A DNA stretch of 62,732 bases, filler included, from Nitrospirota bacterium (GTDB taxonomy: Bacteria; JACPQY01), in NCBI GenBank assembly GCA_016180645.1. It is 3 parts of 3 records of this genome, joined end to end, with 100 filler letters (N's around TTAATTAATTAA, not from the genome) between each part and the next. Parts side by side here need not be neighbours in the genome. Positions count along the whole stretch, not along the records: positions 46,303 to 62,732 come from JACPAV010000060.1; 2 more parts are not named here. The stretch is one strand, 5' to 3'. The translations under genes and the position numbers were made by a program. The notes beneath the pieces were generated by a model that was given only the letters and a program-made list of their open reading frames with translations, searched no databases and was not told the DNA's origin. Shown here piece after piece: positions 43,103 to 62,732 of the stretch (its first letter is position 1; each line of letters opens with the position of its first letter).

Positions 43103-46100
43103 ATGACGCCCGTACTGAAGCGGTGCCTCAGTACCGGATTGGTTTTCACTCTCGGATCAAACGCAGCGCAAGGCTTTCAGAATGTGAGATTCGAAGCCGA
43201 GTGGGGAAATCCGGGCGGCAGGAACGGGCCGTTTCGGGGGCCCGCAGCGCTCGCTTTGGACTCCGCTTCCAACCTCTATGTGGCCGATTCGAAGGGCGAT
43301 CGAATTCTTCTGGTCGGCGCCGATGGCCGGGTGATCCGATCCCTGGGGAGCCGCGGCGAGGGCGCGGGGCAATTCGATTCCCCTTCCGGCATTGGTGTGG
43401 ATCGGGAAGGCCGCATATACGTTTCGGATACCGGCAACGACCGCATACAGGTCCTCGCCCCATCAGGAACGCCGGTCTACGTTTTTGGCGCAGAAGGGAA
43501 CGGCCCGAAACAGTTCGACGAACCCCGTGGGCTCGCGCTGATTTCCGATCTTCTTTTCGTGGCCGACGCAGGGAACCACCGAATACAGGTGTTCAGCCGG
43601 GACGGAGTATTTCTCCACGCCTTCGGAAACGAGCAAACGCTCCAGAAACCCGTGGATGTGGCCGCGGGATCGGACGGGCGCGTGTTTGTCGCCGATGAGA
43701 GCGGAAATCGAATGCAAGTCTTCAACCTGGACGGGGCATTGAAAAGAACCATGTCCGCCCCAACCGATGTACCGGAGAATCTCCTGCGCCCCGTTTCCGT
43801 GGACGTGGACGCGCGCGGCTACCTTTTCGTGGCGGATTCCGGCAATTTCAAGATGAAGAAGTTCGATCCCTCGTACAAAGTCGTCGCCTCGATGGGATCC
43901 AAGGCAAAAACGGGCTCCGGCGCCTTCATTGAAATGTCCGGTTTGGCGGCAGACTCCGCGGGGCGCGTGTATGTTTCGGATGCTGAGAAGAACACGATCC
44001 AGATTTTTTCCACGGAGCGTGAGAGTCAGTTGCCCCTTCCCCGTCGAATCCTGCCTTTCAGCGCGGAAGTGGAGGAGATCGTTCCGGGCCGGGTTCTGGA
44101 TCGTGTACGCATGGAGGACGGCTCGACGGTGGTCTTGGAGGCCGATTCCCGCAAGATGGTCGTCAGCGGCGTCGACGGCACGCGGATCGAAATGGGCCCG
44201 TTCAGAGAGCCCGTTTCGCTCGGTGTGGATCGATCATCCTCTCCGTTGCGCTCCGGGGACGGCGAGAAGAAGCGGTATCCGGAAGAAACGCCGGGAAATA
44301 TCTGGGTGGTGGATGCAGGCGCCCATCAAATTCTCAAGTATGCCAAGGATGGAACTCGCTTGTTGGCCATTGGGAAGAAGGGATCGGCCGGCGGGTATCT
44401 GGATTCTCCGCGAGGGATGGCCTTTTCCACGAACGGGAATCTCTATGTGGCGGACACGGGAAATCACCGGATTCAGATCTTCACGCCCGAGGGTCTGGTC
44501 GTCGGATCCATCGGACGGAAAGGGGAAGCCCCCGGAATGCTCAGGGAGCCGGTGTCGATCGCGATGGACGACTCGAACAACGTGTACGTTGCCGAGGAGG
44601 CGAATGCGCGGGTCAGCCGATTCGACGAACAGGGGAAGCTGATCGGGATCATCGGCGGGCGCGGCACGGCAAGCGGCCGGTTTGAAAAACCCCGCGCGCT
44701 GGCGTGGTCACCGAGCGGGTCGCTGCTCGTCTACGACTACGCAAGACAGGACATTCAACTGTTCACGTCTGAGGGGGAATTCATTTCCAGTTTGGGGAGC
44801 GGCGGGGGAGGACGAGGGGAGTTCCAGTCGGTCGAGAGCCTGCGAGCCCCCTCCCCCACCCAGCTCTGGGTCATGGACGGGGAGCGCGGCGACACGCAGG
44901 TTTTCACGCTTCGATTCACGCCTCAAACCCCGGCGCGCGTGTCGGCCAAGGGAGGACTGAAAGTCATCGAGCTTTCCTGGGAGGCCGGCGGTGAGTCCTA
45001 TCTCGACGGCTTCAATCTGTACCGCAGGGAGAATCCGCGCCGGGCGTTCGAGCGGATTCATTCCACACGGGAGAGCGCGTGGGCCGACCGGGAGGTGGTC
45101 AAAGACCGGACCTACGAATACGCCGTCTCCGCCGTGGCGCGGGACGGCTTCGAGAGTCCCTTGTCGAAAAGCGCTTCCGCCATGCCCTTGAAGCTGGTGC
45201 CGCAGGCGCCGTCCGGAATCAAACTCATGCCCCGGGAGCTGGCCATGGTCGTCTCCTGGCAGCCGAATCCGGAAAAGTTCATCGATCACTACACGGTGTA
45301 TCGCGGGGAAACACCCATCGGGGACTACAAGGAGGTCGCCCGACAGTCCACCACCGTGGCGTTCGACCGGAATCTCCAGGAGGATCGCGTCTACTACTAT
45401 CGAGTGACGGCCACGGCCAAGGAGGGTGAAGAGAGCCCCGCCGGCACGGTTGTCTTCGAGCGTCCCCTGCGTTCTCCGGTGTCCAAGCCCCCCTTGCAAC
45501 TGGCGCCTATCGAGCTGCGTCCCCTTTTCGCATCGCAATACAAGCTTTATGAAAAGGAATCGTTTGGCCGCGTGACCATCCGCAACAATACCGATTTGCC
45601 GATCCCCAACGTTCGGCTCAGCTTGAGTGTGAAGGACTACACGGACTTTCCCACCCAGATCGCGATTCAGGAGATTCCACCCATGGGCTCGGAAGATCGG
45701 GACGTGAAGTTGGTCTTCAACAACAAGATCCTGGATCTCACGGAGAGCGCCACCGTGCAGTTGGCGTTCACCCTCGGCTACTTTGAGGGGCGCATGGAGC
45801 GAACGATGGCCGACGCCTATCCTGTCACGGTCTACGAGAAGCACGTCCTGACGTGGGACGATCCCTCGAAAATCGCCGCGTTCGTGACCCCCGGGGACCC
45901 GGTGGTGGCGTCGGTCGCGCGCGCGGCCATCGCCGAAATTCCGGAGAATGTTCATGGGATGACGGACAACGTCATGAAGGCCAAAACGATTTTCGAGGTG
46001 GCCGGGCTGGCGGGCGTAAGGTACGTTGCGGATCCGAATACACCCTACAAGGAGGCGTCCCAGAACAAGGCCCGCATTGATTTCGTGCAATTCCCCCGTG

Positions 46101-46202
46101 AAACGATTCAGCTCAGGGCCGGTGATTGCGACGACCTCAGCTCACTCTTCGCATCGCTTTTCGAGAACGTGGGCGTGACCACGGTCCTGCTCGATGCTCC
46201 CC
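43103..46202 (+). CDS. Secreted NHL-repeat, Fn3 and transglutaminase-like protein (3' end lost at gap)
   Basis: Many F..P.GI.VD..GN.RIQ repeats, two Fn3 domains, FPRETI..GDCDD. Confidence 0.85.
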
Positions 46203-46302
46203 NNNNNNNNNNNNNNNNNNNNNNNNNNNNNNNNNNNNNNNNNNNNTTAATTAATTAANNNNNNNNNNNNNNNNNNNNNNNNNNNNNNNNNNNNNNNNNN
46301 NN
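46203..46302. other. Artificial contig linker
   Basis: N44-TTAATTAATTAA-N44. Confidence 0.98.
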
Positions 46303-49300
46303 CGTCAGGACGACCGTGAACGTGGCCGTGCCGCCCGCTTCGGTGGTGTTGCCGCTGATCGCGCTGACCGTGTAGCCGGACACGTCGTTGTCGTTGTTCG
46401 TCACCGCCACGTTGGGTGAGGGGGTTAGTCCGTTGTAGTTCGCGTCCGCGCTCGTCGAACCCGAGAAAACAATCGAGTAAGCAATATTGCCGTCCTGAAC
46501 GGCATCGTTCTGCCCGGTGACGGTGACGGTCTGAGGGGTGCTCCAATTGAGATTCGTGAACGTGAGGGAGGCCGGGCCGACCGTGCCCTCGGTCGTGTCG
46601 TTCGACGTGTAGTTGACGGTGACATTCGCCGTCGGCTGGCTGTTGAGCATCACGGTAAAGGTTCCCGTGCCGCCCGCTTCGGTGGTGTTTCCGCTGATCG
46701 CGCTAACTGTGTGGCCGGGCGTGTCGTTGTCGGTGTTCGTTACAGCCACATCCGCCGGGTCAAGACCGTTGTAGCTCGAATCGGTGCTCGTGGCGGCCGC
46801 GGTGGTGATCGTGTAGGCCATGTTTCCGTCGGCCAGCGCGTCGTCCACGCCGGTCACTGTCACCGTCTGCGGCGTGTTCCAATCCAGGCTGGTGAAGGTG
46901 AGGGAGGCGGGAGAGACTGTTCCCTCGGTTGCGTCCGAACTTGAAATCCCCACCGATGTGGCGGCCGTCGGCTGTGTGGTCAGAACGACGGCAAAAGTCG
47001 CCGTTCCGCCCGCCTCGGTAGTGTTTCCGCTGATCGCGCCGACGGTGATCCCTGCCGCTGCGATGGAAAAGTTCGCGTTCGACTCGTCGCTGGAAGTGTT
47101 CCCGTAGGAGTCCGTCGCGATCAACTTCACACGCACCGTGCCGGAGGTGATTGCGGGCACCGTCCACGTGTAGGTGCTGTCGTTGGCTTCCCCGGTGGCG
47201 ATCAGATTCGGATAGGAAGCGCCGCCGTCCGTGGAGTAGTAGAGCGAAATGGGGCCGGCGCCCAGATTCGGGTCGGTGATATCGGCGTTGGACCACGCGA
47301 TAGCTCGTGTGGATCCCTGCGACCATGGTTCGGCCCCGTTCGGGGTAGTCAGCGTACCGGCGAGAATCGACGGGGCAGCGACATCATTCGTAAGAGCCGT
47401 GGGGGAGGATTGATTTCCGACCGCGTCCGTTGCCGTGATGTATAGGGAAGGGTTGGTATTGTCGCCGATGGCCGTGGCCCCAAAGGAGCCATCGGCCAAT
47501 GATGTGACGGTCGTGATGAGTGAGGTGAGGAGGCCATCGGAGTAGATCTTGACGGCGGAGTTGGCTTCGACGGCTCCGGCTGCTCCGCTGACGGTATCAT
47601 TCGTGCCTGGCGTATTCTGGGTGATCGTGAGCTGGGCAGGCGCCGGCGCGGAAGGCGGTGTGGCGTCAACCGTCCATGTGAATGAGGCGGGTGATGCATC
47701 CGCGTTGCCCGCGGCGTCTTTCGCCCGGACGGAGAAAGTGTGCGAGGCGTCGGAGATCCCCGAGTACGCCTTTGGAGATGTGCAGGAGGCATATGCGGAG
47801 CCGTCCAGTTTGCACTCGAAGGTGGCCGTGTTTTCCGGACTCGTAAAGGTGAACGAAGCGGAGGTCTGGTTGGTGGGCGAGGAAGGTTGACCGCTGATGG
47901 ACGTTTCCGGGGCCGCGGTATCGAGCGTGACGGTTGCCGTCAGGCTTGAGGTGGCGTTCCCCAGGGAATCGCGGAACCGGACGTAGACGGTGCGGACACC
48001 ATCGGCGCCAGGCGCCAGGCTCCAGGTCTTGGAGGTGGAAAAGGGCTCGTAGGCTGAAAACGTCGCATCGTCGTTCGAAAACGCCATTTCCGCGGCGTCC
48101 GTGGCGGCGAGCGTCAAGGTGACTCCCAGGGTGCCGGTCACCGTCGCACCGCCGCTGATCGCCACCGTACCGCCCGCAGGTGCGCTGGTCTTCACGGTCC
48201 ATGCGTACGAGGCGGGCGTCGGATCGACGTTGCCGGCGGCGTCCGTGGATCGGACCGCGAACGCGTGTGAACCATCGGTTAGTGGCCCAGCGATCAAGTG
48301 GGAAGACGAGCAGGAGACGAACGCGGCGGAGTCGAGGGAACACTGGAACGCTGCAGACGGATCCGAGGAAGCGAAAGCAAACGCCGCGATTGTCTGATTG
48401 GTGAGCGCGGATGGTGTCGTCGAGATCGTCGTCTCCGGGGGCGCGGTGTCGACCGTCCATGTGTATGTGGCGGGCGTGAGATCCTTGTTGCCGGCCTTGT
48501 CGGTGGCGGAGACGGAGAGGGAGTTCGACCCTTCGACGGGGCTCAGGGCGAACGGGGAAGCGCAGGTCGCGGCAGGAGCGCCATTCAGAGAACAGGTAAA
48601 GGTACACCCCTCACCCCCGCCCTCTCCCGCAAGGGGAGAGGGGGAATTTTGGCAAGTGAAGCCAAAGGTGGCGGCGGAGGAATTGGTCAGTGCGGGCGGC
48701 GTGGACGCCGCCCCTACGAAGAGCGTGTCCGGCGGCGCGGTATCCACCGTCCACGCGAACGTCGCCGGCGTCTGATCCTTATTGCCGGCCTTATCGACAG
48801 CCGACACGGAAAACTTTTGGGATCCATCCTTCGACAAGCTCAGGACGAGCGGGGAAGCGCATGCCGCCGCGGCTTCCGCGTTGAGTTGGCACATGAAAGA
48901 TGAATCGGGTTCGGTACTCGCGAACGTGAACGTGGCGGAGGTCTGGTTCGTCAGGAGGGCGGGCAAGCCCGCCCCTACCAGCGTCGTATCCGGCGGAATC
49001 GAGTCCTTGAGGGCCAGCTTGAACTTGACTTCGAGGGGGGTTGGGTCGGAATTGCCCAGCACATCGGAGGCCTTCACAAGAAGGGTGTGGTCTCCGTCTT
49101 CGGATGGCGGCATGTAGGCCGCCGGACACGAGGCGTAGTCGCCTCCATCAAGGGCGCAACGATAGGTGCAGGCAACCTTGGAGCAGTCGAACACGAAAAC
49201 GTCAGACGCACCGGTCACCGCGCAGAGCGTTCCGGCTCCGCCGGCGCAGGGCTTCGTCTTGAGGATCGTGTCCGGCGAGGTCAGATCCACTTCCTTCAGT

Positions 49301-50319
49301 TTGAGCTTGAAATCCTGGGGAGGCTTCACGCCCGCCACTTCAAAATCCTGCCTCACTTTCGTTTCGAGCTGAACGCTCAGGGTCTCGAATGCCGCCTTCA
49401 CCTGCTCGGTGGTAGGCTTGCTATCCGAGTTGGCTGCACCGGCGATGGCTTGTTGAAGGATGGACTGGGCGGTAGCCGCTGATCCGCCGCTCGAAGGGGA
49501 CGAAGCGGCGACGGCCGAGGCAATTTCCGTTAGAGTGGAAATACCGTCCCCGTCAAGATCCGGGAGTTCCACCTGGTTCACGTCCAGAGGGGTATCCTTG
49601 ATTTCGAGTGTCAGGACAGGTCCCACTCCCGCCCCGGAAGGACCGGCCTCGGACTTCTGCACTTTCACTTCGATCGTCGTGGTGACCTTCACGTATTCGA
49701 CTTCCTGGTGCCCGCGGGAACGGACGCGCGTGCTGATTTGATTCTGGCCATCCTGGGCGGATTTCTTGGGAAGATTGAACGAAATCTCAAACACAAAGGC
49801 CGTCTCGCCCTCACCCGCAGATTCGTCGCGTTTGGGCGCCCCTCGAACACCTCCGCGGACGCCGCCGCGGACACCGCCCTGCTCGGCGCCTCGGATTCCC
49901 CCGCGGACGCCACCCTGCTCCGCTCCGCGCACGCCCCCCCGAACGCCGCCGCGGATACCTTCCGCCACCATCTCGCCGTTCATGTACACGTCGGCCACCA
50001 CTTCATCCCCCGCCTTCCCCTGAATGCCGTTCAGCATGGCGGCGATTTCGGGTGAGAGCGGGATATTCATGTCCATGGGGACGACATCTTTCTTGGCCTG
50101 TGGGAGTTCGAGGTTGCGAACGCAGGAACCGAGAGTGGTGAGGAGCAAGCCGTGAGCCGTAAGCAGCAGGGCAAGAATCGTGAACCGTGAGGAGCAGAGC
50201 GAGAGGCGAGAGGAGGGAGGCGAGAGGCGAGAGAAGAGGGAACAGCCCCGGAGCAGACGACGGGGTGAAGAAAAAAGCACGCGCGAGACTTGCCGCAAAC
50301 TCAGCCCTGCAAACGACAT
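46303..50319 (-). CDS. Large surface lipoprotein: GG[VI]RG domain, DxDxDG loop, Cys-containing Ig-like repeats, Calx-beta-like repeats (3' end lost)
   Basis: Lipobox LGSC; repeats D..PP.T..F.C.LDG..C..G.H.F.V.A.D.AGN.D; TTEAGGTATF..W.TPQTVTVTG repeats. Confidence 0.85.
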
Positions 50320-50382
50320 GCGACGTTTCTAGCAACCACGCAACGTGATGTCAAGTTGTTTCTCAATTTTTTCCAGTAGAAA

Positions 50383-50398
50383 TGTGATGTACGTCACA
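50383..50398. promoter_or_regulatory. CRP/FNR-family binding site
   Basis: TGTGA-TGTACG-TCACA preceded by AAA in an AT-rich divergent intergenic region. Confidence 0.65.
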
Positions 50399-50578
50399 AT
50401 CGTGATTATTCTCGTATTTGCAGGGATTTGGGCGGTCAACATTCGGTGGGCGGAGTCAGTACGAGCATTCGAAGTTGAAGTTGGACTTGAATATTTGTCC
50501 CCCACCAGGGAATCGATCCTGTGTCTTGGCCCAAGGGCTGGGTTTGCCGAAGGCGCCCGGCTGCGCTAAAAGTCGGCT

Positions 50579-51949
50579 GTGCCAGCCGTGAAAAGTTCCA
50601 TCCCCAGCGTTGTCATCGTGGGAGCCGGGTTCGGAGGGCTCTGGGCCAGTGGTCGTCTGAAAAGTGCTGCACTGCAGGTGACGATTTTGGACCGCCAGAA
50701 CTACCACACGTTCTTCCCCCTCCTCTACCAGGTGGCGGCAGCCGAAATTGAGCCGGAGGAAATCGCTTACCCCGTGCGCAGCATCCGCCAGAAAACTTCG
50801 CACGCCCGTTTTTTCGTGGCGGAGGTGCGCCGGATCGATCTTCAGGCGAGACGGATCCTGACCGACGGCCCCGAGCTTCCCTACGACTACCTGATTCTCG
50901 CGCCGGGGAGCGTGCCCCATTTTTTCGGAGTGCCGGGCGCGGCGGATTTCGCCTTCCCCCTGCGAACGATGGATGACGGCATCGAGCTGCGGAATCACAT
51001 CCTGAGCTGCTTCGAGCGCGCCGTCCCGATTGGTGGCATCCAGCCAGTCGCGGGGCGGCTGGGCCATCCTAGCGCCGTTCGTGAACCGGATCCCGCCGAG
51101 AGCCGATCTCTGCTTACGTTTGCCATTGTGGGCGGAGGCCCCACGGGTGTCGAATTCGCAGGGGCCCTCGCGGAACTCATTCACGGACCGTTCCGCACAG
51201 ATTACCCCTCCATCCAGGATGGTGATCCGCACGTCCTTCTCCTCGAGGCGGCGAACGGCCTCCTTCCGGGACAGCCGGCGAACTTGGCCCGATACGCAGC
51301 CGACCGGCTTCGCTCCCGGGGAGTGGCCGTGCGGCTCGGGGCCGTCGTCAGCAAAATTGACGAGAGGGGTGTGGGTCTCAAGGACGGTAGCTTTGTTCCG
51401 AGCCGAACGGTGGTGTGGACCGCCGGGGTATCGGGTCCACCCGCCTTGGAGCAATGGGGGCTTCCGATGGCGAAGGGCGGGCGGGTCGCCGTTCGGCCAA
51501 CCCTCCAGGTCCCGGACCATCCGGAAGTGTACGTGGTGGGCGACTGCGCCCACGTGGAGCACGAAGGCCGTCCCCTTCCCGGAGTTGCACCGGTGGCTAT
51601 GCAGGAAGGCGAGTGGGCTGCAGAGAATATCCGGAGGCAGATCGCCGGAGAGGATCCTGTCCCATTCATGTATAGGGATCTCGGCACGATGGCGGTGATC
51701 GGCCGCAACGCGGCTGTGGCTCGCATCGGAAAGCGTTCATTCACCGGCTTTACCGCCTGGGTCATGTGGCTCGTGGTCCACTTGATGAGGCTGATCGGAT
51801 TTCGGAACCGTCTCGTTGTCTTGTCGAGCTGGGCATGGGATTATTTCTTCTTTGACCGAGTTGTTCGCTTGATCCTTCCGTCAACGCACCGAAGGGACTC
51901 CGCGCGAGCGTTCAAACCGGGATCACCCGGAGGGGCGCAAGAAACGTAG
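50579..51949 (+). CDS. ndh: Type II NADH dehydrogenase
   Basis: GAGFGG, PLLYQVA, VGGGPTGVEFAG, VVGD, PGVAPVAMQEG. Confidence 0.93.
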   Translation: MPAVKSSIPSVVIVGAGFGGLWASGRLKSAALQVTILDRQNYHTFFPLLYQVAAAEIEPEEIAYPVRSIRQKTSHARFFVAEVRRIDLQARRILTDGPELPYDYLILAPGSVPHFFGVPGAADFAFPLRTMDDGIELRNHILSCFERAVPIGGIQPVAGRLGHPSAVREPDPAESRSLLTFAIVGGGPTGVEFAGALAELIHGPFRTDYPSIQDGDPHVLLLEAANGLLPGQPANLARYAADRLRSRGVAVRLGAVVSKIDERGVGLKDGSFVPSRTVVWTAGVSGPPALEQWGLPMAKGGRVAVRPTLQVPDHPEVYVVGDCAHVEHEGRPLPGVAPVAMQEGEWAAENIRRQIAGEDPVPFMYRDLGTMAVIGRNAAVARIGKRSFTGFTAWVMWLVVHLMRLIGFRNRLVVLSSWAWDYFFFDRVVRLILPSTHRRDSARAFKPGSPGGAQET

Positions 51950-52012
51950 GGGGCCGTGCCACGATTTTGCATCGCGGGCCCGTCGTGGTACATTTGGACG
52001 CGGGAGGTCACC

Positions 52013-53080
52013 ATGAGATTCCATGCAGCCGTGTCCCTGCTCGCTTTCGTCATCCTCACAGCCGCGTGCGCGAGCGATTCCACACCGCCGAAACAGAAGG
52101 AATTGAGCCTCGATGTGCCGGTCCTCTCTCAAACCGCAGTGGCCTTGGAAGGCATGGGCGAGCTGGAGGCCACACTCGCCGTAGATGGACAGAACCTGTC
52201 GGGAGTTCGCGGCGGGGTTCGAGGCGGAGTTCGTGGAGGCGTGAGGGGAGGGGTCCGAGGCATCGGGACGCGTGACGCGGGGCGCGAGACGCAGGCAAGA
52301 GGGGGACCGGCGTCCGGTGCCTTGCGATCAGCGCAATCTTCGGAGTTCCCGGTTTACAATGTGACCTACACGTTCGAATCCATTCCCGAGAGTCTGGCGA
52401 GCGGCTCGCATCGTCTGCATCCGATCTTCGTTCGGGCCACCGATCCGGTGGGAGAGGAGCGCGGGCTCTGTTGGTTTGAGTTTGACAAGGAGCTGTCGTC
52501 CGACGGGGCGCTCGTGGATCCCCTGATCGATCCGAACAGCGAGCTGTTCGGGATCCCCGACGACGACCAGGACGGTGTGTCCAACCTGGTCGAGCTGGCG
52601 ATCGGGAGCGATCCGACGAATGCATCGGCCCGCCCCTCCGCCGATGAGATCAGGGCGAAAGGATTCGACGCGACGCCGCCGGAGACCACGATCACAAGCT
52701 GCACGGCAGCCTCTGGGGGTGGTCGGACTGTGGAGTTTTCATGCTCGGAGCTGTGCGCCGATGCGACCAAAGAAGGCGACCTGATCGGCTCATCGTCCCT
52801 GGCCGCGATGGCCCGGGACGACGCAAGGAACGCAGCTCAGGATGAGCTGCAGCATACGTCGCAACCGACGCTCGCCTGTGCGGTCACCGCCCAGATCGCC
52901 CAGTGCGGCTTCCGATGCAAAGTGGACGGCCCGTCAGGGGAAGGGAGAGTGGAGGTTTGCCGTAGCGGCTTCGTCGCAAAATCTTCGGGGGCCGGGAAAT
53001 ACACTTTCAGCGTGCGGGCTCTCGACGGCTTTGGGAATGCCGACACGACTCCGGCCACATGTGAGTGGAACGAACCATAA
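52013..53080 (+). CDS. Lipoprotein with (GGVR)n repeat, DxDxDG loop and one Ig-like repeat
   Basis: GGAGG RBS; lipobox TAAC; PDDDQDGVSNLVE; DATPPETTI..FSVRALDGFGNADTTPA. Confidence 0.85.
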   Translation: MRFHAAVSLLAFVILTAACASDSTPPKQKELSLDVPVLSQTAVALEGMGELEATLAVDGQNLSGVRGGVRGGVRGGVRGGVRGIGTRDAGRETQARGGPASGALRSAQSSEFPVYNVTYTFESIPESLASGSHRLHPIFVRATDPVGEERGLCWFEFDKELSSDGALVDPLIDPNSELFGIPDDDQDGVSNLVELAIGSDPTNASARPSADEIRAKGFDATPPETTITSCTAASGGGRTVEFSCSELCADATKEGDLIGSSSLAAMARDDARNAAQDELQHTSQPTLACAVTAQIAQCGFRCKVDGPSGEGRVEVCRSGFVAKSSGAGKYTFSVRALDGFGNADTTPATCEWNEP

Positions 53081-53273
53081 TCCTCTCGCATCTTGGGGCT
53101 GAATGCCCCCATCTCCGGGCAAAAAAGTCCGAATTCGCGCCCTCCAAGGCCCCATCACACCCCTGAAAAGTGATTTGGCACACATTTGCTAGGAGGAAGG
53201 CTAAGTACATGAACGCATACCGTACAAGAACCAATGGGAGGGTTCTTTGCCCTCCTTCAGAAAGGGGTGAGTC

Positions 53274-55751
53274 ATGAAATACATCCGTTCTCTTGGAACA
53301 ATCGTTTTCGCCGGCTCGATCCTCGCGTGCGAAGTGAGCGGGACCGGGACCGGAACCACAGTATCGAAGGAACCGAGCGAGAATGAACAGACGGCTCAAG
53401 CCGTCGCCTCCGTTGCGGATACCACCCAGACTCTGAACGAAACGGTGGAGACGGTTCAGACCGTCACCGAACTGACCTCCACGGTGGAGAGCTTGAGCGA
53501 GACCGGCTCAACACTCCAATCGGCCTCCTCGGCCGGATCGGCGACCTCAACGACCTCCACCCTTGGCGGAATCCGCGGCGCTCCGGCGCGTGCCGATGCC
53601 GCGGCCACCGAAACGCCCGATTTCGGCAAGTGTGATGCGACCCCCACCGACGCCGCACCACTCCCGTGCCACTGCATCTACAAAACCCCCGAGAAATTCG
53701 GGCTGGACCAGGATGCCAAGTGCGCGGAACACGTCCCGGGCGCCGCCAAGGCCGTCGTGGCCACCGTGCGCATCAAGACTACCGACGAGGCCGACATCTA
53801 CAAAATCACGATCAAGGCCGTTGTACCCGCCAAGGCCGACCTGCCGGCGGACGTCAAGAAGCATTGCGTCGTGGCGGGGACGGAGATGACCTGCTCGGCG
53901 GATACCGTTGTCGTGAAACGTTGCAAGGACGACGGAGTCACCTGCTTCTTTGTGCCCGCCCCGGCGATTCCCGAGGGCAGTGTGGTGTTCATCAACCGTC
54001 GATTCGAGCTTCCGGATGATTACAAGGCCCCGGAGGATTTCAAGGATCAGACCGCGGTCACCACATGGCTCAAGGCCATCCTTGAAGGCTGGAACACGGC
54101 GAAGAATGACGACGAGCGCCGCGCCTTCATCAAGCGCTTCCTGATCGTGGACAACGGCTGGGTCACCGAGATCAAGAGAGTTCAGTGCGAACCGGGAAAT
54201 GAGAAACAGAAACCCGGCGAGCCGTGGTGCCCGGATTTCCGCCCGCCCGCGGAAGGGAAGGACGGCGCCCAAGCGCCGCATCCGGTAAAAGAGAGCGGAA
54301 TGCGGTTCATCTCGCGGCAAGTGCCCCCGCCGGTCCTCCCCGGCGAGACGCCCTCCGCAGAGCCGGCCAATCTTGGCCACTACGAAGTGGATTTCCGGAT
54401 GATCGATTTGAAATTCAGAATGCCGGGCGAGCAGCAGCCCCGCAAGACGCAGGCGTTTCGTGTTGCGCTGGAGAAGCCCGGCGAGGCATGCACACCGGTC
54501 GACCTCAAAGGCCAGCCTCTCTCCGGAGCGCCCAGCGGACGGCTGATCACCGCCACGCACGCGGCCATCGAGGCGCACGGCGGATACGAGAACGGCGGTC
54601 GAAAGGCGTGCCGTGCCGTGGAGAAAGTAAAACTCGAATCCGGCAAGGTCGTCACGCCGACGAGTTGGGTGAGCCAGGAGTTCGCGCGACTCCAGATTCT
54701 GCCGGTCCCGCCGCCCGACAAGGCCCCGGCGCGATATCCCGTAACGCGCGAGGAAAAAGGGAAGCACTACCTCGTGGTCGATCCGCCCGAGAAGGTGCAA
54801 AAAGAGCGCGAGGAGAAGGTCGGGACGGTTGCCGACAAGGATCGGCGGCCCGGCGCGGGTGGAACCACGGCCACGGGAACCGATACGAACCGACTCCGCG
54901 GAGTCGAGGATCGAGCGACGGGTGAAGGGGTCGCCGCGGTTGCCAAGGCCCAATCGGACCGGTGCCCCGGCCACGGCGAGGGAATCACCAACGTCACCAT
55001 CAAGTTCAATGACGGCCGCATCGACGAGAGGGTCCATCGTTACCTGAAAGAAGAGGGCGTCTGCCAGCCCACTCCGCTCGACGAGGATGGAAATCCGATT
55101 CCTGTAGAGGAGGATGAGAAGGGGAATCTCAAGATTAAGATCAAGGACAAGAAAGGTCAGGACTTGGACGTGTCCGTCGAGAATCCCGAATCCCCATCGA
55201 AGACCATCAAGATCAGCGCCGGGTTCGTTTCAGGCTACATCAACCTCCACGAGGCGGACGAAAATGGCGTCATCGGCGAAGGGACACTGAACGTCACCGT
55301 TCCGGGAACGAGCGTCGAGGTCAGCCTAACGATGACCGAGGCCGGATGGCAGCATGTGCAAGGGAAGGCCACGATCAAGAGCGGAAAGAACGGCACGAAG
55401 ACCATGCTTTTCTGGCAGGATCGCACTGAGAGTGGCGCGTTGATCAAGTTCAAGCTGGTTGCGTCGGGCGAAATCACCGTCGCCGAAAGCGCGGAAGCCC
55501 AAGCCGAAGCCGCCTCAGCTGAAGGATCGCTGGACATGACAGTTCCCTCCGATTCGTCCAATGCCTGCGAGGAGGTGGGACAGGGAAGCCTCAACGAAGC
55601 CGGCACGGGGTATTCCCTGACGGTTTACGAAGACACGAGCACCCTGATCAGGATCGGAAACAACACGGTGAATGTTCCTGTCGGCTGCGCGGGCGGAGGA
55701 ACGCCGGCGACGACAACGGCCGACACCGTCTCCGCGGCAACGAAAGGCTAG
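53274..55751 (+). CDS. Cys-rich orphan lipoprotein with GGIRG motif
   Basis: Lipobox ILAC; S/T-rich linker; 825-aa ORF followed by a terminator. Confidence 0.8.
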   Translation: MKYIRSLGTIVFAGSILACEVSGTGTGTTVSKEPSENEQTAQAVASVADTTQTLNETVETVQTVTELTSTVESLSETGSTLQSASSAGSATSTTSTLGGIRGAPARADAAATETPDFGKCDATPTDAAPLPCHCIYKTPEKFGLDQDAKCAEHVPGAAKAVVATVRIKTTDEADIYKITIKAVVPAKADLPADVKKHCVVAGTEMTCSADTVVVKRCKDDGVTCFFVPAPAIPEGSVVFINRRFELPDDYKAPEDFKDQTAVTTWLKAILEGWNTAKNDDERRAFIKRFLIVDNGWVTEIKRVQCEPGNEKQKPGEPWCPDFRPPAEGKDGAQAPHPVKESGMRFISRQVPPPVLPGETPSAEPANLGHYEVDFRMIDLKFRMPGEQQPRKTQAFRVALEKPGEACTPVDLKGQPLSGAPSGRLITATHAAIEAHGGYENGGRKACRAVEKVKLESGKVVTPTSWVSQEFARLQILPVPPPDKAPARYPVTREEKGKHYLVVDPPEKVQKEREEKVGTVADKDRRPGAGGTTATGTDTNRLRGVEDRATGEGVAAVAKAQSDRCPGHGEGITNVTIKFNDGRIDERVHRYLKEEGVCQPTPLDEDGNPIPVEEDEKGNLKIKIKDKKGQDLDVSVENPESPSKTIKISAGFVSGYINLHEADENGVIGEGTLNVTVPGTSVEVSLTMTEAGWQHVQGKATIKSGKNGTKTMLFWQDRTESGALIKFKLVASGEITVAESAEAQAEAASAEGSLDMTVPSDSSNACEEVGQGSLNEAGTGYSLTVYEDTSTLIRIGNNTVNVPVGCAGGGTPATTTADTVSAATKG

Positions 55752-55786
55752 CCGGAAAGCAAGTCAGGTCCTCCTTCTACGATTGC

Positions 55787-55826
55787 GCCCTCCATCCGCT
55801 GATGTGGCGGATGGGGGGCTTTTTTT
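55787..55826 (+). terminator. Intrinsic terminator
   Basis: GCCCTCCATCCGC-loop-GCGGATGGGGGGC followed by T7. Confidence 0.8.
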
Positions 55827-55893
55827 CGGGGGGTTCAGCCGTCAGCGATCAGCCTTCTATCTAGGCTAAGCCTCTATAGCGGACCATAGAGGC

Positions 55894-57066
55894 TTAGCCT
55901 AGATAGGGGATCCCAAAAACATCTTCTCCGAAGACTTCCTTCTCGATCGCCAGGATATCGGGGCGAATCTCGCCCTCGTGAAGCTCGGTATAGTCCCGGT
56001 AGCCCGTGAATTTTTCCGGCTCGAACGCCCGAACGCAACTGTTGAAAAAGAGATTCAGAATGGCGAGGAACTCTTCGCGCGGTCGGAGCAGCGGCATACC
56101 GGAATTCTCGGCCAGCCGGGTGGCCTTCGCCACGAATCGACCGAAGAAGCCGAAGCAGTCCATCCCGACCGCCTCGAACGCGTCCTTGTAGTCCCAAATG
56201 AGTTTGGCGGCGGGCAGAAGGAGAAGCTCCCGGGCGAGCCTGTCGCGCCGACTGTTCGTCACCTCCTCCGGGACGTTCCCAGCCTCGTAGTAGTTCTTCG
56301 GGAACCCCACGTGTCGCGATTCATCGAGGTGAAAGACCGGGAGGATGTGGCGCAGTCCGGGGAAATCGGCAAACTGGGCGAAGAGCGACGTGGCGAAGCT
56401 CTCGAGCACCACGTTCATGCCGTAGAGCTTCAGGTACGGGCGCGCCTGCGCAATTTTTTCGAATGTGATGAAGGCGGAATCGTGGAGGGGCACGCTGTGG
56501 CCCAGCGTCCGGACCATCGCGCGGAGGACGATGAAGTGCTTCGCTTCCTCCATCACCTGCATGGCCATCCCCATCTTGGAGCCGGTGCCGGTGACCACCG
56601 GAAGAAGGGTCGAACTCGTGTAGAGCGCATACGCCTCTCCGTGCGCGATGAGCGACATCAGTTTGCAGACCGCTTCCCGCTGCTCCGGGGAAAAGGCTTC
56701 CTCGAATTCGCGGCGGACGTCCTCCGAAGTGGCGCGTTCCATCAGCTCGTCCGTTTCGCCCTTCTGGGCGTCGGGGTCCACGCCCAGCTTTTCCACCTCG
56801 GTCGCATCGTGAAATCCGAGGTACGGGGCCTGAACCTCCGCCTTCCAGATCTTGCGGAGGGCTTTTTCATAGACTTTGCGGGTGAGCTCTTCCATGTCGC
56901 CCCCTCGAAACGCGTGCGCACGGTCGTCGTAGTCGTTGGCCTGAGTTCTTTCCAGCTTCCGCCTCCAGCGGGGCTCGACCCAATTGTACGCCGCCGCCGC
57001 CAAGGGTCCCCCGTGGCAGAACGCCGCCCAGGTCGCTTTCTGACGCATCGCCGCCATCGTGTTCAT
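55894..57066 (-). CDS. Ferritin-like di-iron protein
   Basis: HGE..EEAKH..E..DESRH carboxylate/His ligand pattern. Confidence 0.85.
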   Translation of the reverse strand: MNTMAAMRQKATWAAFCHGGPLAAAAYNWVEPRWRRKLERTQANDYDDRAHAFRGGDMEELTRKVYEKALRKIWKAEVQAPYLGFHDATEVEKLGVDPDAQKGETDELMERATSEDVRREFEEAFSPEQREAVCKLMSLIAHGEAYALYTSSTLLPVVTGTGSKMGMAMQVMEEAKHFIVLRAMVRTLGHSVPLHDSAFITFEKIAQARPYLKLYGMNVVLESFATSLFAQFADFPGLRHILPVFHLDESRHVGFPKNYYEAGNVPEEVTNSRRDRLARELLLLPAAKLIWDYKDAFEAVGMDCFGFFGRFVAKATRLAENSGMPLLRPREEFLAILNLFFNSCVRAFEPEKFTGYRDYTELHEGEIRPDILAIEKEVFGEDVFGIPYLG

Positions 57067-57698
57067 GGTTTCACCTCCCCTGAGGGATTTCCCCCAAGAA
57101 TCTTCACGAGGACCTTCTTGAAATCTTCAAACGCGCGATCGCCCCGGCCGGGATCGGCCGAGAACAGGGCGTGACCGCAGAAACCGATCAGCGCGGCCAT
57201 GACGATATCTGCAAAGCTCTCTGCGCTCATATCGAGCTGGTTCTGAAGCGGGCCCAAGACCGTTCGAATGCCTCCGACCAGGAGCGCCCGTTGTTCCTCG
57301 ATGGAGTGGACCACCCTGCGCTTCAAAGTTTTCCGTGTCATCGATCGGGCGGCCAAGTCCATGAACACCGGTAGGAGCGGCTGCGCCTTTTTCAGGAGCT
57401 TCCACAATTCGTCGAACGCCCACAGGGCCTGCTGAACCGAGGGACCGAGCTGCGACGTGGCGCCCTCCACGCGATCGGAAATCTTGCGAAAGAGCAGGGA
57501 TTGCACCTCCAGCAGAAGCTGCTCCTTGGATTTGAAATGGTAGTGCAGCAGACCTTTTGAGACGCCGGCTTCGCGCGCGATGTCGTCCATGGACGTGGAC
57601 TGAAACCCGTTTCGATTGAAGCAGGTGAGCGCGGCTTCGAGGATGGCCTGCATCGAAGCGGCCCGGCGCTCCGCGTGGCTTCGACGCGGATGCGCCAT
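57063..57698 (-). CDS. TetR/AcrR-family regulator
   Basis: TSMDDIAREAGVSKGLLHYHFKSKEQL; start uncertain. Confidence 0.93.
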   Translation of the reverse strand: MAHPRRSHAERRAASMQAILEAALTCFNRNGFQSTSMDDIAREAGVSKGLLHYHFKSKEQLLLEVQSLLFRKISDRVEGATSQLGPSVQQALWAFDELWKLLKKAQPLLPVFMDLAARSMTRKTLKRRVVHSIEEQRALLVGGIRTVLGPLQNQLDMSAESFADIVMAALIGFCGHALFSADPGRGDRAFEDFKKVLVKILGGNPSGEVKP

Positions 57699-57860
57699 CG
57701 CCCGCTGCGATCGGCCTCCCGCCCTCCGTGGGAAGATTGGTGTTACGCTTGCTTGCATAGTCATCATACTGGCACTTGCCCCAGGTCGGCTCACCTTCCT
57801 GGCTCGCCCTGATCAGGCAAGTACCGCACCATCCTTGGCTGGCTAGCCAGTCAGTATTAC

Positions 57861-57889
57861 ATCCTACGGAAACCATGTGGACCTGTCAA
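57861..57889 (-). promoter_or_regulatory. Sigma-70 promoter for tetR and the di-iron gene
   Basis: Minus strand TTGACA-N17-TAGGAT. Confidence 0.65.
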
Positions 57890-57959
57890 GTCCCCATTAG
57901 TTTCCCGGCCGGCTCATCGATTTTTTGGGTGGGGACGGGTATGCTCCGCAGCCGGCGGG

Positions 57960-60227
57960 ATGATGACGATGAGGATGAGCACATGGGCGATGAGTCTCTT
58001 GCTTCTCGTGGCGATGGCATCTATCGCTCGAGGCGACGAGAGGACGCCGTTGGCAGGGCGCCTCCTCGAAAAGGGCACCCGCCGTCCTATCGAGGGAGGA
58101 ACAGTGATGGTGCTTGAGACCTCCGAATTTGCTCTCACGGATCGCTCGGGGAACTTCATCCTAGCCACTCCAAACACACTTCCCCTCACATTCAAGATCC
58201 TCGCCCCCGGATACAAACCCTTTGAGGAAAAAATCGATTCTTGGCTGGACGGACGACGGGTGACGGACGACGGACGACGTTTTTTCTACCTCGATCCCGA
58301 AGTCGTCTCCTCTCTCGAAGTGCTCGTGGAGGCCGAGGCCGAGCGGCGGGAAACGGCCCGGAGAGTCATCACCCGGCAGGAGGTGCAGAAAGCGGCCGGA
58401 ACCGGGGGGGACGCCATCAAGGTGGTGCAAGACATGCCGGGGGTGGCCCGCACCCCTTTTTCGGGGGGGGGGTTGATCGTTCGCGGTTCGGCCCTCGAAG
58501 ACACCGGCGTCTACATGGACGGCCACGAGATCCCGCTCCTCTTCCATTTCGGCGGCCTCACGAGTACGTTCAACTCCGATCTCATCCGCGACCTCCGCTT
58601 CTACCCAGGCGTCTACTCCGTGAGGTACGGCCATGAGATGGGCGGCATTGTCGACATCCGGTCGCGCGCCGGGGACGCCACCGGCACACATGGGTACGTG
58701 GACGCCGACTTCTACGATGCGGGCACTCTTTTGGAGGGACCCGTCAAGAATTTCTCGTACACTGCGTCCCTCCGACGGAGCTACGCGGATGCCATCATCA
58801 AAGCGGCCGTCCCGGAGGATGTCGTCCGATTCACCCTCGCTCCCCGCTACTATGATTACGAGGCTTCCGTCGGGGGTCGATTCCTCCCGCGCATGTCCGG
58901 GTCACTCATGGCGTTCGGATCGGACGACAAGATGGCCCTCGTGCTCGAGGAACCGCCGGGTCGAGAAGTGGAGTTTTCGGGTAATTTCAATTCCAACCTG
59001 TATTTCCATCGCCTGCTCGCGAAATGGAGCTGGGATCTCGGGGCGAACCTTCGAAATGAATTCTCGACGGCCGCGGGTCCGGACCGCATCCTCTTCCGAA
59101 TAGCCGAACTCAGCCATCTCAGCATCCGGATCTGGAACACTTCGCTAAGGGATGAGCTCTTCTACCAGCCCACTCCCTGGCTCACGCTCTACCCCGGGAT
59201 CCATTTCGTCTGGGGCAGAGGCAACTACGACGCGAGATTCCCCCGAATCCCGAGGGAGGACGACCCCGAGCATGCCTACGACCCGGTCTCGGTTCGCGAC
59301 GCCGACGGCGTCCTCGCCGGCTCGGCGGTCTCGCCCTACCTAGAAGCCGTGATCCGACCGATCAGTCGGATCAGCCTGACCCCAGGGGTGCGATTGGACC
59401 GCTACACTATCCAAAATCAAACACCGATTTCCCCGCGGATGACCGCGCGATATCAGCTCTTGGAACCGCTCACGTTCAAGGTGGGCGCAGGCCTCGTTCA
59501 CCAGCCCCCCGAACCGCAGGACGTGGCCGAGGGAATTGGCCAGCCGGAGCTGGGCGTCCAGCGCGCGGCCCAGTACACGGGCGGATTCGAGGTCGATCTC
59601 CCCCGAGGATGGAGCGGCGACATCCAGGGATTCTACAAAGACCTGTCGCTCCTCGTGGTCCGAAAGGCCGAATCCGACATTTCCAACTACGATCCTTCCG
59701 ATCTTGAAAACGGCGGCATCGGCCGCATCTACGGAAGCGAAGTGTACCTCTCATGGAAGAACCCCCGCGGATTCGCCTGGTGCAGCTACACGCTCTCACG
59801 GAGCGAACGACGCGACCACCCTGGAGAAGACTATCGATTCTTCAGCTTCGACCAGACTCACATCCTGACCGTGGTGGGCACGCTGAGCTTGACGGCGAAA
59901 TGGGACCTCGGAGCGCGCTTCCGATACTCCACGGGCCGCCCGGAAACCCCGTTCATCGATTCGATCTACGACGCGGATCGCGACCGGTACATCCCGATCC
60001 CCGGGGAACTTTATTCCGTTCGAATCCCCGGGTTTCACCAGCTTGACGTGCGCGTCGACCGGCGCTGGAGATTCAATACGTGGATGCTGACAAGCTATCT
60101 CGACATCCAGAATGTGTACGTGCAGAAGAACCCCGAGGGGTTTTCCTACAACTATGACTACAGCGAACGGCAGGCCGTGACGGGCATCCCCATCTTTCCG
60201 TCTTTCGGCCTTAGAGCGGAGTTCTGA
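57960..60227 (+). CDS. TonB-dependent receptor
   Basis: Signal peptide, plug (MPGVAR..LIVRGS..IPLLFHFGG..YPG), terminal GLRAEF. Confidence 0.92.
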   Translation: MMTMRMSTWAMSLLLLVAMASIARGDERTPLAGRLLEKGTRRPIEGGTVMVLETSEFALTDRSGNFILATPNTLPLTFKILAPGYKPFEEKIDSWLDGRRVTDDGRRFFYLDPEVVSSLEVLVEAEAERRETARRVITRQEVQKAAGTGGDAIKVVQDMPGVARTPFSGGGLIVRGSALEDTGVYMDGHEIPLLFHFGGLTSTFNSDLIRDLRFYPGVYSVRYGHEMGGIVDIRSRAGDATGTHGYVDADFYDAGTLLEGPVKNFSYTASLRRSYADAIIKAAVPEDVVRFTLAPRYYDYEASVGGRFLPRMSGSLMAFGSDDKMALVLEEPPGREVEFSGNFNSNLYFHRLLAKWSWDLGANLRNEFSTAAGPDRILFRIAELSHLSIRIWNTSLRDELFYQPTPWLTLYPGIHFVWGRGNYDARFPRIPREDDPEHAYDPVSVRDADGVLAGSAVSPYLEAVIRPISRISLTPGVRLDRYTIQNQTPISPRMTARYQLLEPLTFKVGAGLVHQPPEPQDVAEGIGQPELGVQRAAQYTGGFEVDLPRGWSGDIQGFYKDLSLLVVRKAESDISNYDPSDLENGGIGRIYGSEVYLSWKNPRGFAWCSYTLSRSERRDHPGEDYRFFSFDQTHILTVVGTLSLTAKWDLGARFRYSTGRPETPFIDSIYDADRDRYIPIPGELYSVRIPGFHQLDVRVDRRWRFNTWMLTSYLDIQNVYVQKNPEGFSYNYDYSERQAVTGIPIFPSFGLRAEF

Positions 60228-60246
60228 TGAACGTGAAGGGTGAAGA

Positions 60247-61164: not shown

Positions 61165-61269
61165 CTTCTCTTAATTACTTATATATCAATGCGAATGGCG
61201 TGGCACTAACCGTTTAGTTGACAACGTTGACGGTTCGTGTCACCATATCAGTCCAAGGAGGACGCGATA

Positions 61270-62544: not shown

Positions 62545-62564
62545 GCACGGGATCAAAAGCAAGC

Positions 62565-62732
62565 TGTTGTAGTTTAGTCAACATGTCCGCTTTACTGTTG
62601 AGTGAAAATGTCCTCCCCCGCGCGTGGCATGGATGAGGGGGGAGCGGGGGGAGAGGGGGTCCGATTGTTGCGGCGCAGAGTTCGGAGGAGCCGATCCTGA
62701 CCCGGTTTTTCCGTTTCGAGTAGAATTCGGTG
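62565..62732. mobile_element. IS terminal inverted repeat and start of element (runs off window)
   Basis: TGTTGTAGTTTAGTCAACATGTCC...GTTGAGTGAAAATGTCCTCC, similar to the end at 536. Confidence 0.75.

What the first reader, a model, noticed from the sequence alone, without database searches (positions are those of the whole stretch)
49835..53595. Three neighbouring secreted lipoproteins share a GG[VI]RG motif, repeated 8x, 5x and 1x
Seen: the large lipoprotein has GIRGGVRGGVRGAEQGGVRGGIRGAEQGGVRGGVRGGVRGAPKR (about 49835-49960). The 52013 protein has five VRG units (52202-52261). The 53274 protein has LGGIRGAPAR. Codons are diversified (Arg = CGC, CGA, CGT, AGG, CGA in the second), pointing to protein-level selection rather than DNA slippage. 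Proteins 1 and 2 carry the repeat at the same place in a similar N-terminal domain (DMNIPLS/SLDVPVLS..MNG/VDG), followed by DxDxDG and Ig-like repeats. Inference: a shared processing or assembly signal, e.g. Arg-specific cleavage releasing lipoprotein precursors (by analogy with gingipain-processed type V pilins) or a polymerisation tag. Possibly an undescribed surface system.
Basis: partly seen in the sequence, partly recalled or inferred. Interest (0 to 1): 0.8.

Follow-up and report, generated by a model that had tools for sequence, protein, structure and literature searches.

The report
Gly-Arg repeat cassette in giant lipoproteins
A short glycine-valine-arginine repeat, kept by selection, sits just behind the lipid anchor of about 35 mostly giant surface-type lipoproteins in a rare groundwater bacterial lineage; it is an undescribed motif whose function, perhaps a cutting site, is still untested.

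Summary
P1, P2 and P3 carry 8, 5 and 1 G[VI]RG units at the stated places.

The same cassette, (G-[VI]-R-[GA])n ending in small-Pro/Ala-x-Arg, occurs in 32 open frames of this 4.7-Mb genome. Of these, 30 lie behind a lipoprotein signal.

About 30 frames share a new N-terminal beta-sandwich module with P1 and P2. The cassette is a loop modelled with low confidence inside that module.

The units are identical as protein but fully scrambled in codons. Arg is never Lys (178 to 0). The cassette is kept in the only sister genome, in orthologs whose flanks are 38-55% identical.

Beyond these two genomes, only 29 of 1.84 billion representative proteins match. No Pfam or NCBIfam model and no paper covers it.

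The mechanism is not shown. My best guess (0.35) is an exposed Arg-specific processing or shedding hinge between the lipid anchor and the passenger. Rivals are a cationic envelope-binding loop and an elastic spacer like TonB (GGVx)n linkers.

Protease co-occurrence is weak. The C25 genes are PorU-like and found in one of two genomes. The planned oligomer prediction could not be run.

The parts
46303..50319 (-). P1: giant lipoprotein gene, 3' end missing because contig C22 starts at 46303
   Evidence: ORF list. Contig map. The spacer 46203-46302 is N / ttaattaattaa / N. Pfam Big_13 at 1.2e-18. NCBIfam OmpL47-type barrel domain, 91.5 bits against cut-off 40.
50122..50124 (-). P1 lipobox cysteine codon (Cys66, LLLTTLGSC)
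   Evidence: Read directly. Found by the strict lipobox rule.
49504..50109 (-). P1 N-terminal beta-sandwich module (new family) ending in LPDLDGDG
   Evidence: HMM E 1.4e-73. AlphaFold2 pLDDT 80.5, pTM 0.73. Alignment A1.
49828..49959 (-). P1 Gly-Arg cassette: 11 in-phase tetrads, 8 of them G[VI]RG, ending in APKR
   Evidence: Model residues 70-99 have pLDDT below 50, while the first two units lie in a strand with pLDDT 88.
52013..53080 (+). P2: small (355 aa) lipoprotein with the same module
   Evidence: HMM built without P2 gives E 2.1e-12.
52067..52069 (+). P2 lipobox cysteine codon (Cys19, VILTAAC)
52100..52660 (+). P2 N-terminal module with a TSP3-like IPDDDQDG
   Evidence: Alignment A1. 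Pfam TSP3_bac, 20.2 bits against cut-off 25.
52202..52273 (+). P2 cassette: five GVRG units plus IGTR
53274..55751 (+). P3: 825-aa lipoprotein of a different family, with no Pfam or NCBIfam hit
   Evidence: Paralog on contig C8. Ortholog P0032 in the sister genome, 43% identical.
53328..53330 (+). P3 lipobox cysteine codon (Cys19, GSILAC)
53565..53591 (+). P3 single unit GGIRGAPAR, at the end of a Ser/Thr-rich tether
   Evidence: Aligned with GGLRGAPMR of the C8 paralog and with the last unit of the four-unit C23 paralog. LLGGIRGAAPR sits at the same place in P0032.

Best explanation
What it is (well supported): a portable, lineage-specific cassette. It consists of tetrads G-[VI]-R-[GA], 1 to 11 copies, kept in a phase of four and sometimes interrupted by AEQG-like tetrads. 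It closes with small-Pro/Ala-x-Arg, often followed by (R/K)Q and acidic residues. It lies 27-175 residues (mode 55-58) behind the lipidated cysteine of lipoproteins.

In about 30 mostly giant proteins the cassette is a loop, modelled with low confidence and probably flexible, between the N-terminal strands (beta1, helix, beta2, beta3) and the remaining strands of a new beta-sandwich module. That module is followed by a DxDxDG motif, Ig-like/OmpL47-type domains and a variable head, mostly an RCC1 propeller. In at least three other lipoprotein families, including P3's, the cassette lies between an N-terminal tether and the first globular domain.

How it most likely works (inferred, not shown): the cassette is an exposed, Gly-flanked array of arginine sites. 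An exported Arg-specific endopeptidase cuts there, separating the body of the protein from its lipid-anchored N-terminus. This would be maturation or shedding, as in lipoprotein precursors of Porphyromonas type V pilins. The closing x-x-Arg(-Gln) would be the final site, and extra units would raise the cutting efficiency.
For: - Location: the cassette is always between the lipid anchor and the body of the protein, in four unrelated N-terminal contexts.
- Lipoprotein link: 30 of 32 cassette frames have a lipobox upstream, against 494 of 3851 other frames.
- Arg specificity: Arg is at unit position 3 in 178 of 185 G[VIL]x[GA] tetrads and Lys in none, while the genome-wide K/(K+R) is 0.26.
- Minimal version: a single unit is conserved in the P3 family. 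This fits a recognition site better than bulk charge.
- Selection on the peptide: codons are scrambled. Orthologs with 38-55% flank identity keep 8/8, 7/6, 10/8, 4/3 and 5/4 units.
- Model confidence: pLDDT is below 50 over the cassette in two models.
- Closing motif: 42 of 50 cassettes have an Arg 3-4 residues after the last unit. [RK]Q lies within 30 residues in 24 of 50, against a background of 9.6%.
- Candidate enzymes: exported clan-CD peptidases exist. C14 is present in both genomes. C25 is present in this genome, with His and Cys aligned to RgpB His211 and Cys244 and an Asp aligned to Asp163.
- Precedent: passages of PMC5954841.
Against: - No cleavage is shown; there are no proteomic data.
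- One site would do, so 5-11 units are not explained.
- The strict phase of four and the first two units modelled as a strand (pLDDT 87-88) suggest a structural role.
- C25 was found in 1 of 2 genomes (sister genome 84% complete). It scores as PorU-type sortase (184-190 bits, below cut-off 420).
- S8 was found in 1 of 2 genomes. C11, omptin and Glu_cyclase_2 were found in 0 of 2.
- No protease gene is a regular neighbour.
- P1, P2 and P3 themselves lack the RQ motif.
- In the module family, a cut in the loop would leave the two parts of the module packed together in the model, so release is not automatic.
Confidence: 0.35

Rival explanations
1. Cationic envelope-binding loop, acting as a second anchor. 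In an extended chain the period-4 units put Val/Gly on one face and Arg/Gly on the other. The loop, near the lipid anchor, would bind phosphates or acidic sugars of the membrane, LPS or capsule and hold the giant protein against the envelope.
For: - Strict Arg with no Lys, an aliphatic V/I, a phase of four kept across interruptions, and a variable copy number.
- Always in lipoproteins and close to the anchor.
- The first units are modelled as a strand.
- Lipid plus polybasic two-signal anchoring is a known principle (recalled, eukaryotic examples).
Against: - Single-unit versions are conserved and carry too little charge.
- Units are interleaved with acidic tetrads (AEQ) and flanked by acidic stretches.
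- The enriched closing Arg and RQ motif is not explained.
- No binding data exist.
Confidence: 0.25
2. Elastic or entropic spacer. The (GGVR)n tetrads behave like the (GGVx)n linkers of TonB proteins and give reach or extensibility.
For: The family profile's weak outside hits are TonB proteins with GGVxGGVx linkers. P0023 and P0029 each have four TonB_C domains. A (GGVP)8 linker occurs in G027. Copy number is variable, and pLDDT is low over the cassette.
Against: - In about 30 proteins both ends of the cassette return to the same domain, so it adds no length to the chain.
- Strict Arg is not needed for a spacer, since TonB linkers use E, Q, V, L, A or P at that position.
- Single-unit versions exist.
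Confidence: 0.12
3. Surface-export or threading signal. A flexible cationic segment would be recognised by, or threaded through, an outer-membrane machine that brings lipoproteins to the cell surface.
For: The cassette is exclusive to lipoproteins and sits in their N-terminal region in several families. The proteins have adhesin-like architectures.
Against: No candidate translocon was identified. No conserved neighbour was found. The loop is inside a folded module.
Confidence: 0.1
4. Assembly tag. After cleavage, or by opening of the long loop, the N-terminal strands of one protein's module (those before the loop) pair with the remaining strands of another's. This would build chains or meshes of different giant lipoproteins.
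For: A long flexible loop separates the strands before it from those after it within one sandwich. About 30 paralogs share the module. Type V pili are a precedent.
Against: - No oligomer evidence exists.
- The fold search gives only generic sandwiches (best Z 5.8).
- The cassette also occurs where there is no module.
Confidence: 0.08
5. Neutral low-complexity expansion by DNA slippage in GC-rich DNA, with no function.
For: The 12-nt and 36-nt periodicities are detectable. Unit numbers differ between paralogs.
Against: - Codons are as scrambled as independent draws.
- Units are far better conserved than flanks between genera.
- There is no Lys in 185 tetrads.
- No length variants appear in contigs of 4 runs, although contigs drop rare variants.
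Confidence: 0.03

Closest known systems
Type V pilin precursors of Porphyromonas gingivalis (FimA, Mfa1/3/4) matured by Arg-gingipain
   Same: Both are made as signal-peptidase-II lipoproteins. An N-terminal strand region belongs to the fold. There is arginine downstream of the anchor. A C25-family peptidase is encoded in the genome.
   Different: - No sequence or fold match to pilins was found.
- These proteins have a repeat array instead of one Arg site.
- They are 1000-2960 aa with propeller heads.
- The C25 genes are PorU-like and were not found in the sister genome.
- Cleavage is not shown.
(GGVx)n tetrad linkers of TonB-family proteins
   Same: Gly-Gly-Val-x repeats of period four in envelope proteins. 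These are the only outside matches of the family profile's repeat part.
   Different: In TonB linkers x is E, Q, V, L, A or P, not Arg. They are true linkers before TonB_C domains, not loops in a domain. The proteins are not lipoproteins.
Leptospira OmpL47-type and Big-domain surface lipoproteins
   Same: A lipobox followed by a chain of Ig-like/OmpL47-type barrel domains. In P1 the NCBIfam domain scores 91.5 bits against a cut-off of 40.
   Different: The equivalog model scores 47.7 against a cut-off of 250. The N-terminal module and the cassette have no counterpart there.
RGG/GAR boxes of eukaryotic RNA-binding proteins (recalled)
   Same: Repeated Arg-Gly-Gly in a flexible region.
   Different: These are exported bacterial lipoproteins. 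Val/Ile is obligatory in each unit and the period is a strict four.

Membership tests
Bacterial lipoproteins (signal peptidase II substrates) | N-terminal hydrophobic signal ending in a lipobox with an invariant Cys | tested here: met
   P1 LLLTTLGSC, P2 VILTAAC and P3 GSILAC. The strict PROSITE-like rule (written from recall) finds 18 of 32 cassette frames. The relaxed rule finds 30 of 32, against 494 of 3851 background frames. Lipidation itself is not testable here.
Type V pilins (FimA/Mfa) | Sequence match to the pilin families | tested here: not met
   The Pfam scan of P1, P2 and P3 at E up to 0.01 lists only Big_13, Big_6, Big_3_3 and TSP3_bac.
Type V pilins (FimA/Mfa) | Pilin fold | tested here: inconclusive
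   Foldseek found no match at E 0.001 or better. VIA-align found a best Z of 5.8 and no pilin among the 50 rows shown. Only the N-terminal module was modelled.
Type V pilins (FimA/Mfa) | Removal of the lipidated N-terminus by an Arg-specific protease, then polymerisation | not testable with these tools
   This needs proteomics or biochemistry. The oligomer prediction was never accepted by the queue.
Type V pilins (FimA/Mfa) | Co-occurring Arg-gingipain | tested here: inconclusive
   C25 has 2 matches in this genome and 0 in the sister genome (84% complete). Catalytic His and Cys, and an Asp aligned with RgpB Asp163, are present. The best NCBIfam hit is the PorU sortase, below its cut-off.
TonB proteins with Gly-Gly-Val-x linkers | TonB_C domain | tested here: not met
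   No TonB_C in P1, P2 or P3. P0023 and P0029 have four each.
Leptospira OmpL47 | Score above the equivalog cut-off | tested here: not met
   47.7 bits against a cut-off of 250. The domain model alone passes, at 91.5 against 40.
Bacterial TSP3 (DxDxDG) repeat | Pfam TSP3_bac above the gathering score | tested here: inconclusive
   P2 scores 20.2 bits against a cut-off of 25. The motif LPDxDGDG is nearly invariant in alignment A1.

The most novel reading that the evidence does not exclude
The cassette marks a type-V-pilus-like maturation and assembly system outside Bacteroidota. About 30 giant lipoproteins with different propeller heads would be cut in the Arg loop by an exported clan-CD peptidase. 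They would then dock or polymerise by exchanging the strands that lie before the loop in their shared sandwich module, building a modular surface mesh.
Probability: 0.08. Interest if true: 0.85.

Novelty: new variant of a known kind. Interest (0 to 1): 0.55.

Why it matters
Lipoprotein sorting, surface display and release are poorly understood outside a few model phyla. This is a sharply defined peptide motif under strong selection. It is exclusive to lipoproteins of a barely sampled groundwater lineage and shared by about 35 proteins, which make up a large part of that organism's predicted surface. It gives a concrete, small test object: P2 is only 355 aa. With it one can ask whether bacteria outside Bacteroidota mature or shed lipoproteins at arginine sites, or use a polybasic second anchor. 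If neither holds, it is still a new domain family plus motif that annotation pipelines currently miss.

Tried and rejected
- **Oligomer prediction.** The calls were 50, 55, 58, 60, 62, 64, 70, 74, 80, 82, 84, 87, 89, 91, 96, 98, 99, 101, 104, 106, 108, 110, 112 and 113. It was never accepted (queue full; once no usable answer), so there is no result on oligomers.
- **Fold and atlas searches.** Foldseek against the PDB gave nothing at E 0.001 or better. VIA-align wide gave only generic sandwiches, best Z 5.8, rmsd 5.1, 94 aligned. The ESM Atlas gave no usable hit for P2 or for the P1 module.
- **Literature.** Literal searches for seven repeat strings found 0 papers.
- **Other enzyme families.** Glu_cyclase_2, tested for a possible pyroglutamate end after RQ, was found in 0 of 2 genomes. 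C11 and omptin were also found in 0 of 2.
- **Sigma-54 promoter.** The consensus scan of the window gave 35 matches against 50 expected, none convincing upstream of P1-P3.
- **Conserved protease neighbour.** None was found. One S8 subtilase lies directly upstream of the four-gene array on C10 and one S8-PKD giant lies upstream of a fragment on C27. S8 was not found in the sister genome.
- **Expression.** No RNA holder is listed for this stretch.
- **Repeat-length variation.** None was seen in the contigs of 4 groundwater runs of one study, three of which may be the source.
- **Earlier notes of this scan.** Look-ups by sequence and by words returned nothing related.
Full report
**Observation**

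The window is two contigs joined by an artificial spacer: N-run, ttaattaattaa, N-run at 46203-46302. Places 46303-62732 are contig C22 of a 4.72-Mb, 65-contig genome with 60.8% G+C.

- P1 (46303-50319, minus strand) therefore lacks its 3' end.
- Its translation holds GIRGGVRGGVRGAEQGGVRGGIRGAEQGGVRGGVRGGVRGAPKR at 49828-49959.
- P2 (ATG 52013 to 53080) has five GVRG units at 52202-52261.
- P3 (53274-55751) has GGIRGAPAR at 53565-53591.
- All three start with a hydrophobic signal ending in small-small-Cys.

Tandem Repeats Finder reports period 12 at only 58% matches and period 36 at 75% in P1.

**Not slippage**

Every GVRG unit of P1 (6) and of P2 (5) has a different DNA sequence. Over 201 within-gene pairs of identical-peptide units the mean nucleotide identity is 0.748, against 0.754 expected if codons were drawn independently. 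The repeat is held at the protein level.

**A genome-wide family**

A six-frame scan found 32 open frames with two or more units spaced exactly four residues apart.

I built an HMM from 17 N-terminal regions, without P2. It hits 31 frames at E below 1e-8. One of these, on C31, matches the repeat part alone. P2 is hit at 2.1e-12 over model positions 4-188, so the P1 and P2 N-terminal domains are homologous. P3 is not hit.

The module reads as follows (alignment A1):
- lipobox Cys;
- about 15 residues;
- VPLDVSLPLSPEVAAALNGV;
- an acidic stretch;
- VADVYVNGELVAEG;
- the cassette;
- a variable stretch;
- often (R/K)RQ plus acidic residues;
- LAFAFEVTFFLP...;
- LPDxDGDGVSTLxEVA.

Behind the module come Big_13/OmpL47-type domains and a head. 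Most full-length members end in an RCC1 propeller. Others carry NHL, FG-GAP or Kelch-like repeats (precomputed Pfam).

**The cassette is portable**

It also occurs in lipoproteins without the module.
- The P3 family. P3, a paralog on C8 with GGLRGAPMRQ, and a 1612-aa protein on C23 with four units align with the unit in the same column.
- Three proteins on C3, where the cassette sits in front of a stretch that looks to me like a CarboxypepD_reg domain (my reading of the sequence, not scanned).
- Proteins on C31, C52 and C63.

In all of these it lies between the anchor-proximal segment and the next folded part.

**Lipoprotein link**

A relaxed lipobox rule finds a signal upstream of 30 of 32 cassette frames, against 494 of 3851 other frames (Fisher p 1.5e-24; paralogs are not independent). 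A strict PROSITE-like rule finds 18 of 32, against 346 of 3882. The distance from Cys to the first unit clusters at 55-58 residues.

**Constraints inside the unit**

- Position 3 is Arg in 178 of 185 G[VIL]x[GA] tetrads and never Lys, although K/(K+R) is 0.26 in long frames.
- Position 2 is Val 132, Ile 46, Arg 6.
- Position 4 is Gly 132, Ala 46, with 9 other residues.
- Successive units are nearly always a multiple of four residues apart, even across AEQG-like tetrads.
- After the last unit, 42 of 50 cassettes have another Arg 3-4 residues on (APKR, APAR, AARR and the like).
- [RK]Q follows within 30 residues in 24 of 50, against a background of 9.6%. P1, P2 and P3 lack that RQ.
- Two divergent members on C62 have lost the units but keep PGAPPR or GAPMHRR.

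**Distribution**

- Profile A1 matched 3 of 41 related genomes. This genome had 40 matches, the one genome of the same family (G001, 84% complete) had 22, and one unrelated genome had a single weak repeat-only match.
- The GTDB phylum holds only these 2 species, and both are positive.
- Against 1,835,955,588 representative proteins the profile found 29 at E 0.001 or better and 21 at 1e-10 or better.
- The non-family tail of that list is TonB proteins with GGVxGGVx linkers and fungal-like secreted proteins.
- The word-based search found 4 proteins among 8000 scored. Three have no source label and contig lengths equal to contigs of this genome.
- Of the 10 homologs looked up, 7 have a Logan assembly as their only source; 9 of the 10 are alone in their cluster.
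- The stretch is held by 4 groundwater-metagenome runs of one study.

**Conservation between genera**

- Of 17 N-termini fetched from G001, 15 have 2 or more units, up to 11.
- Of those 17, 14 have a hit in this genome and 5 are reciprocal best hits. Flank identities are 38-55% and unit counts are 8/8, 7/6, 10/8, 4/3 and 5/4.
- P3's ortholog (43% identical) keeps LLGGIRGAAPR at the same place.
- A quick tree of 39 modules (26 plus 13; frames of 300 aa or less and modules of 140 aa or less left out; the careful search did not finish) interleaves the two genomes as much as shuffled labels do: 11 changes against 11.0. The family seems to have diversified before the genera split.

**Structure**

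- AlphaFold2 on A1 (P1 module, 202 aa) gives pLDDT 80.5 and pTM 0.73. It is a beta-sandwich with one helix. Residues 70-99, most of the cassette, are below 50. The first two units continue strand beta3, at pLDDT 88.
- A G001 module with 11 tetrads in a row (10 G[VI]RG units and one GIQG) gives the same picture: pLDDT 78.6, with residues 52-95 below 50.
- Fold searches give no specific relative.

**Proteases**

| Family | This genome | G001 |
|---|---|---|
| C25 | 2 matches (E 1e-84, 2e-81) | 0 |
| C14 | 2 | 3 |
| CHAT | 0 | 1 |
| C11 | 0 | 0 |
| S8 | 3 proteins | 0 |
| Omptin | 0 | 0 |

- The C25 domains keep residues aligned with RgpB His211, Cys244 and Asp163.
- They score best as PorU-type sortase, below the cut-off.
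- They sit at the end of 2313- and 2327-aa proteins.

**Neighbours**

Recurrent neighbour families are sigma-54 activators, OmpA-family proteins, histidine kinases and integrases. No processing enzyme recurs.

**Interpretation**

It is shown that this is a selected, Arg-specific, lipoprotein-restricted, portable motif in a new module family.

The function is inferred only. I rank an Arg-specific processing or shedding hinge first (0.35). It is the one reading that explains the placement between anchor and body in every context, the conserved single-unit versions and the closing Arg(-Gln). It also has a precedent in type V pilin lipoprotein precursors (passages of PMC5954841 read; passages of the review PMC9046445 read).

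The multi-copy array, the phase of four, the strand-like first units and the patchy protease distribution argue for the rivals: a cationic envelope-binding loop (0.25), an elastic spacer (0.12), an export signal (0.10) and an assembly tag (0.08).

No supplements were consulted.

Noticed in passing
G000:C31:78389-85327 and G000:C47:1475-8455 (outside the window): Two giant proteins (2313 and 2327 aa) end in a C25 peptidase domain. It scores best as a PorU-type T9SS sortase, below the cut-off. After it comes a Cys-rich GC[AG]C motif, a hydrophobic helix and an RRRR tail, with a weak MYXO-CTERM hit at E 0.0046. A PorU-like enzyme with a sorting tail in this non-Bacteroidota lineage is unexplained.
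   Followed up: partly
window 50148-50284 (5' end of P1); many large ORFs of G000 and G001: Short peptides that look like translated interspersed DNA repeats are inserted in frame in many unrelated large proteins, often right after the cassette. Examples are GASSDAGIKPAPTK, REPVNRDPVNQ, GITGSR, ELGTRNQEP, DLTTSR and RFTVHGSRF. The tandem 28-nt and 7-nt repeats at the start of P1 have an 18-fold contig-depth spike in run X1.
   Followed up: partly
window 46203-46302: The window is two contigs joined by N-run, ttaattaattaa, N-run. The NHL/fn3 protein at 43103-46200 is therefore not a proven neighbour of P1.
   Followed up: yes
window 50122-50319: P1 and its closest paralog have an unusually long stretch (65 residues in P1) before the lipobox Cys, with no alternative ATG, GTG or TTG start near the hydrophobic core. 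The true start codon is uncertain.
   Followed up: no
G000 contigs C10, C28, C51 (outside the window): Four giant fusion proteins (Ser/Thr kinase, AAA, TPR, GAF, sigma-54 activator; 1735-1947 aa) and several ordinary sigma-54 activators lie next to family genes. Two of the four giants were scanned against Pfam. No sigma-54 promoter was found upstream of P1-P3.
   Followed up: partly
window 55894-57066 (-), 60247-61164 (+), 61237-62544 (+): Three ORFs of 390, 305 and 435 aa have no Pfam family at E 1e-4 or better. They flank a TetR gene (57063-57794) and a TonB-dependent receptor gene (57960-60227).
   Followed up: no
G027 locus L023; proteins P0023, P0029: TonB proteins of other phyla use (GGVP)8 or GGV[EQVLA] tetrad linkers. 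P0023 and P0029 carry four TonB_C domains in one chain.
   Followed up: partly
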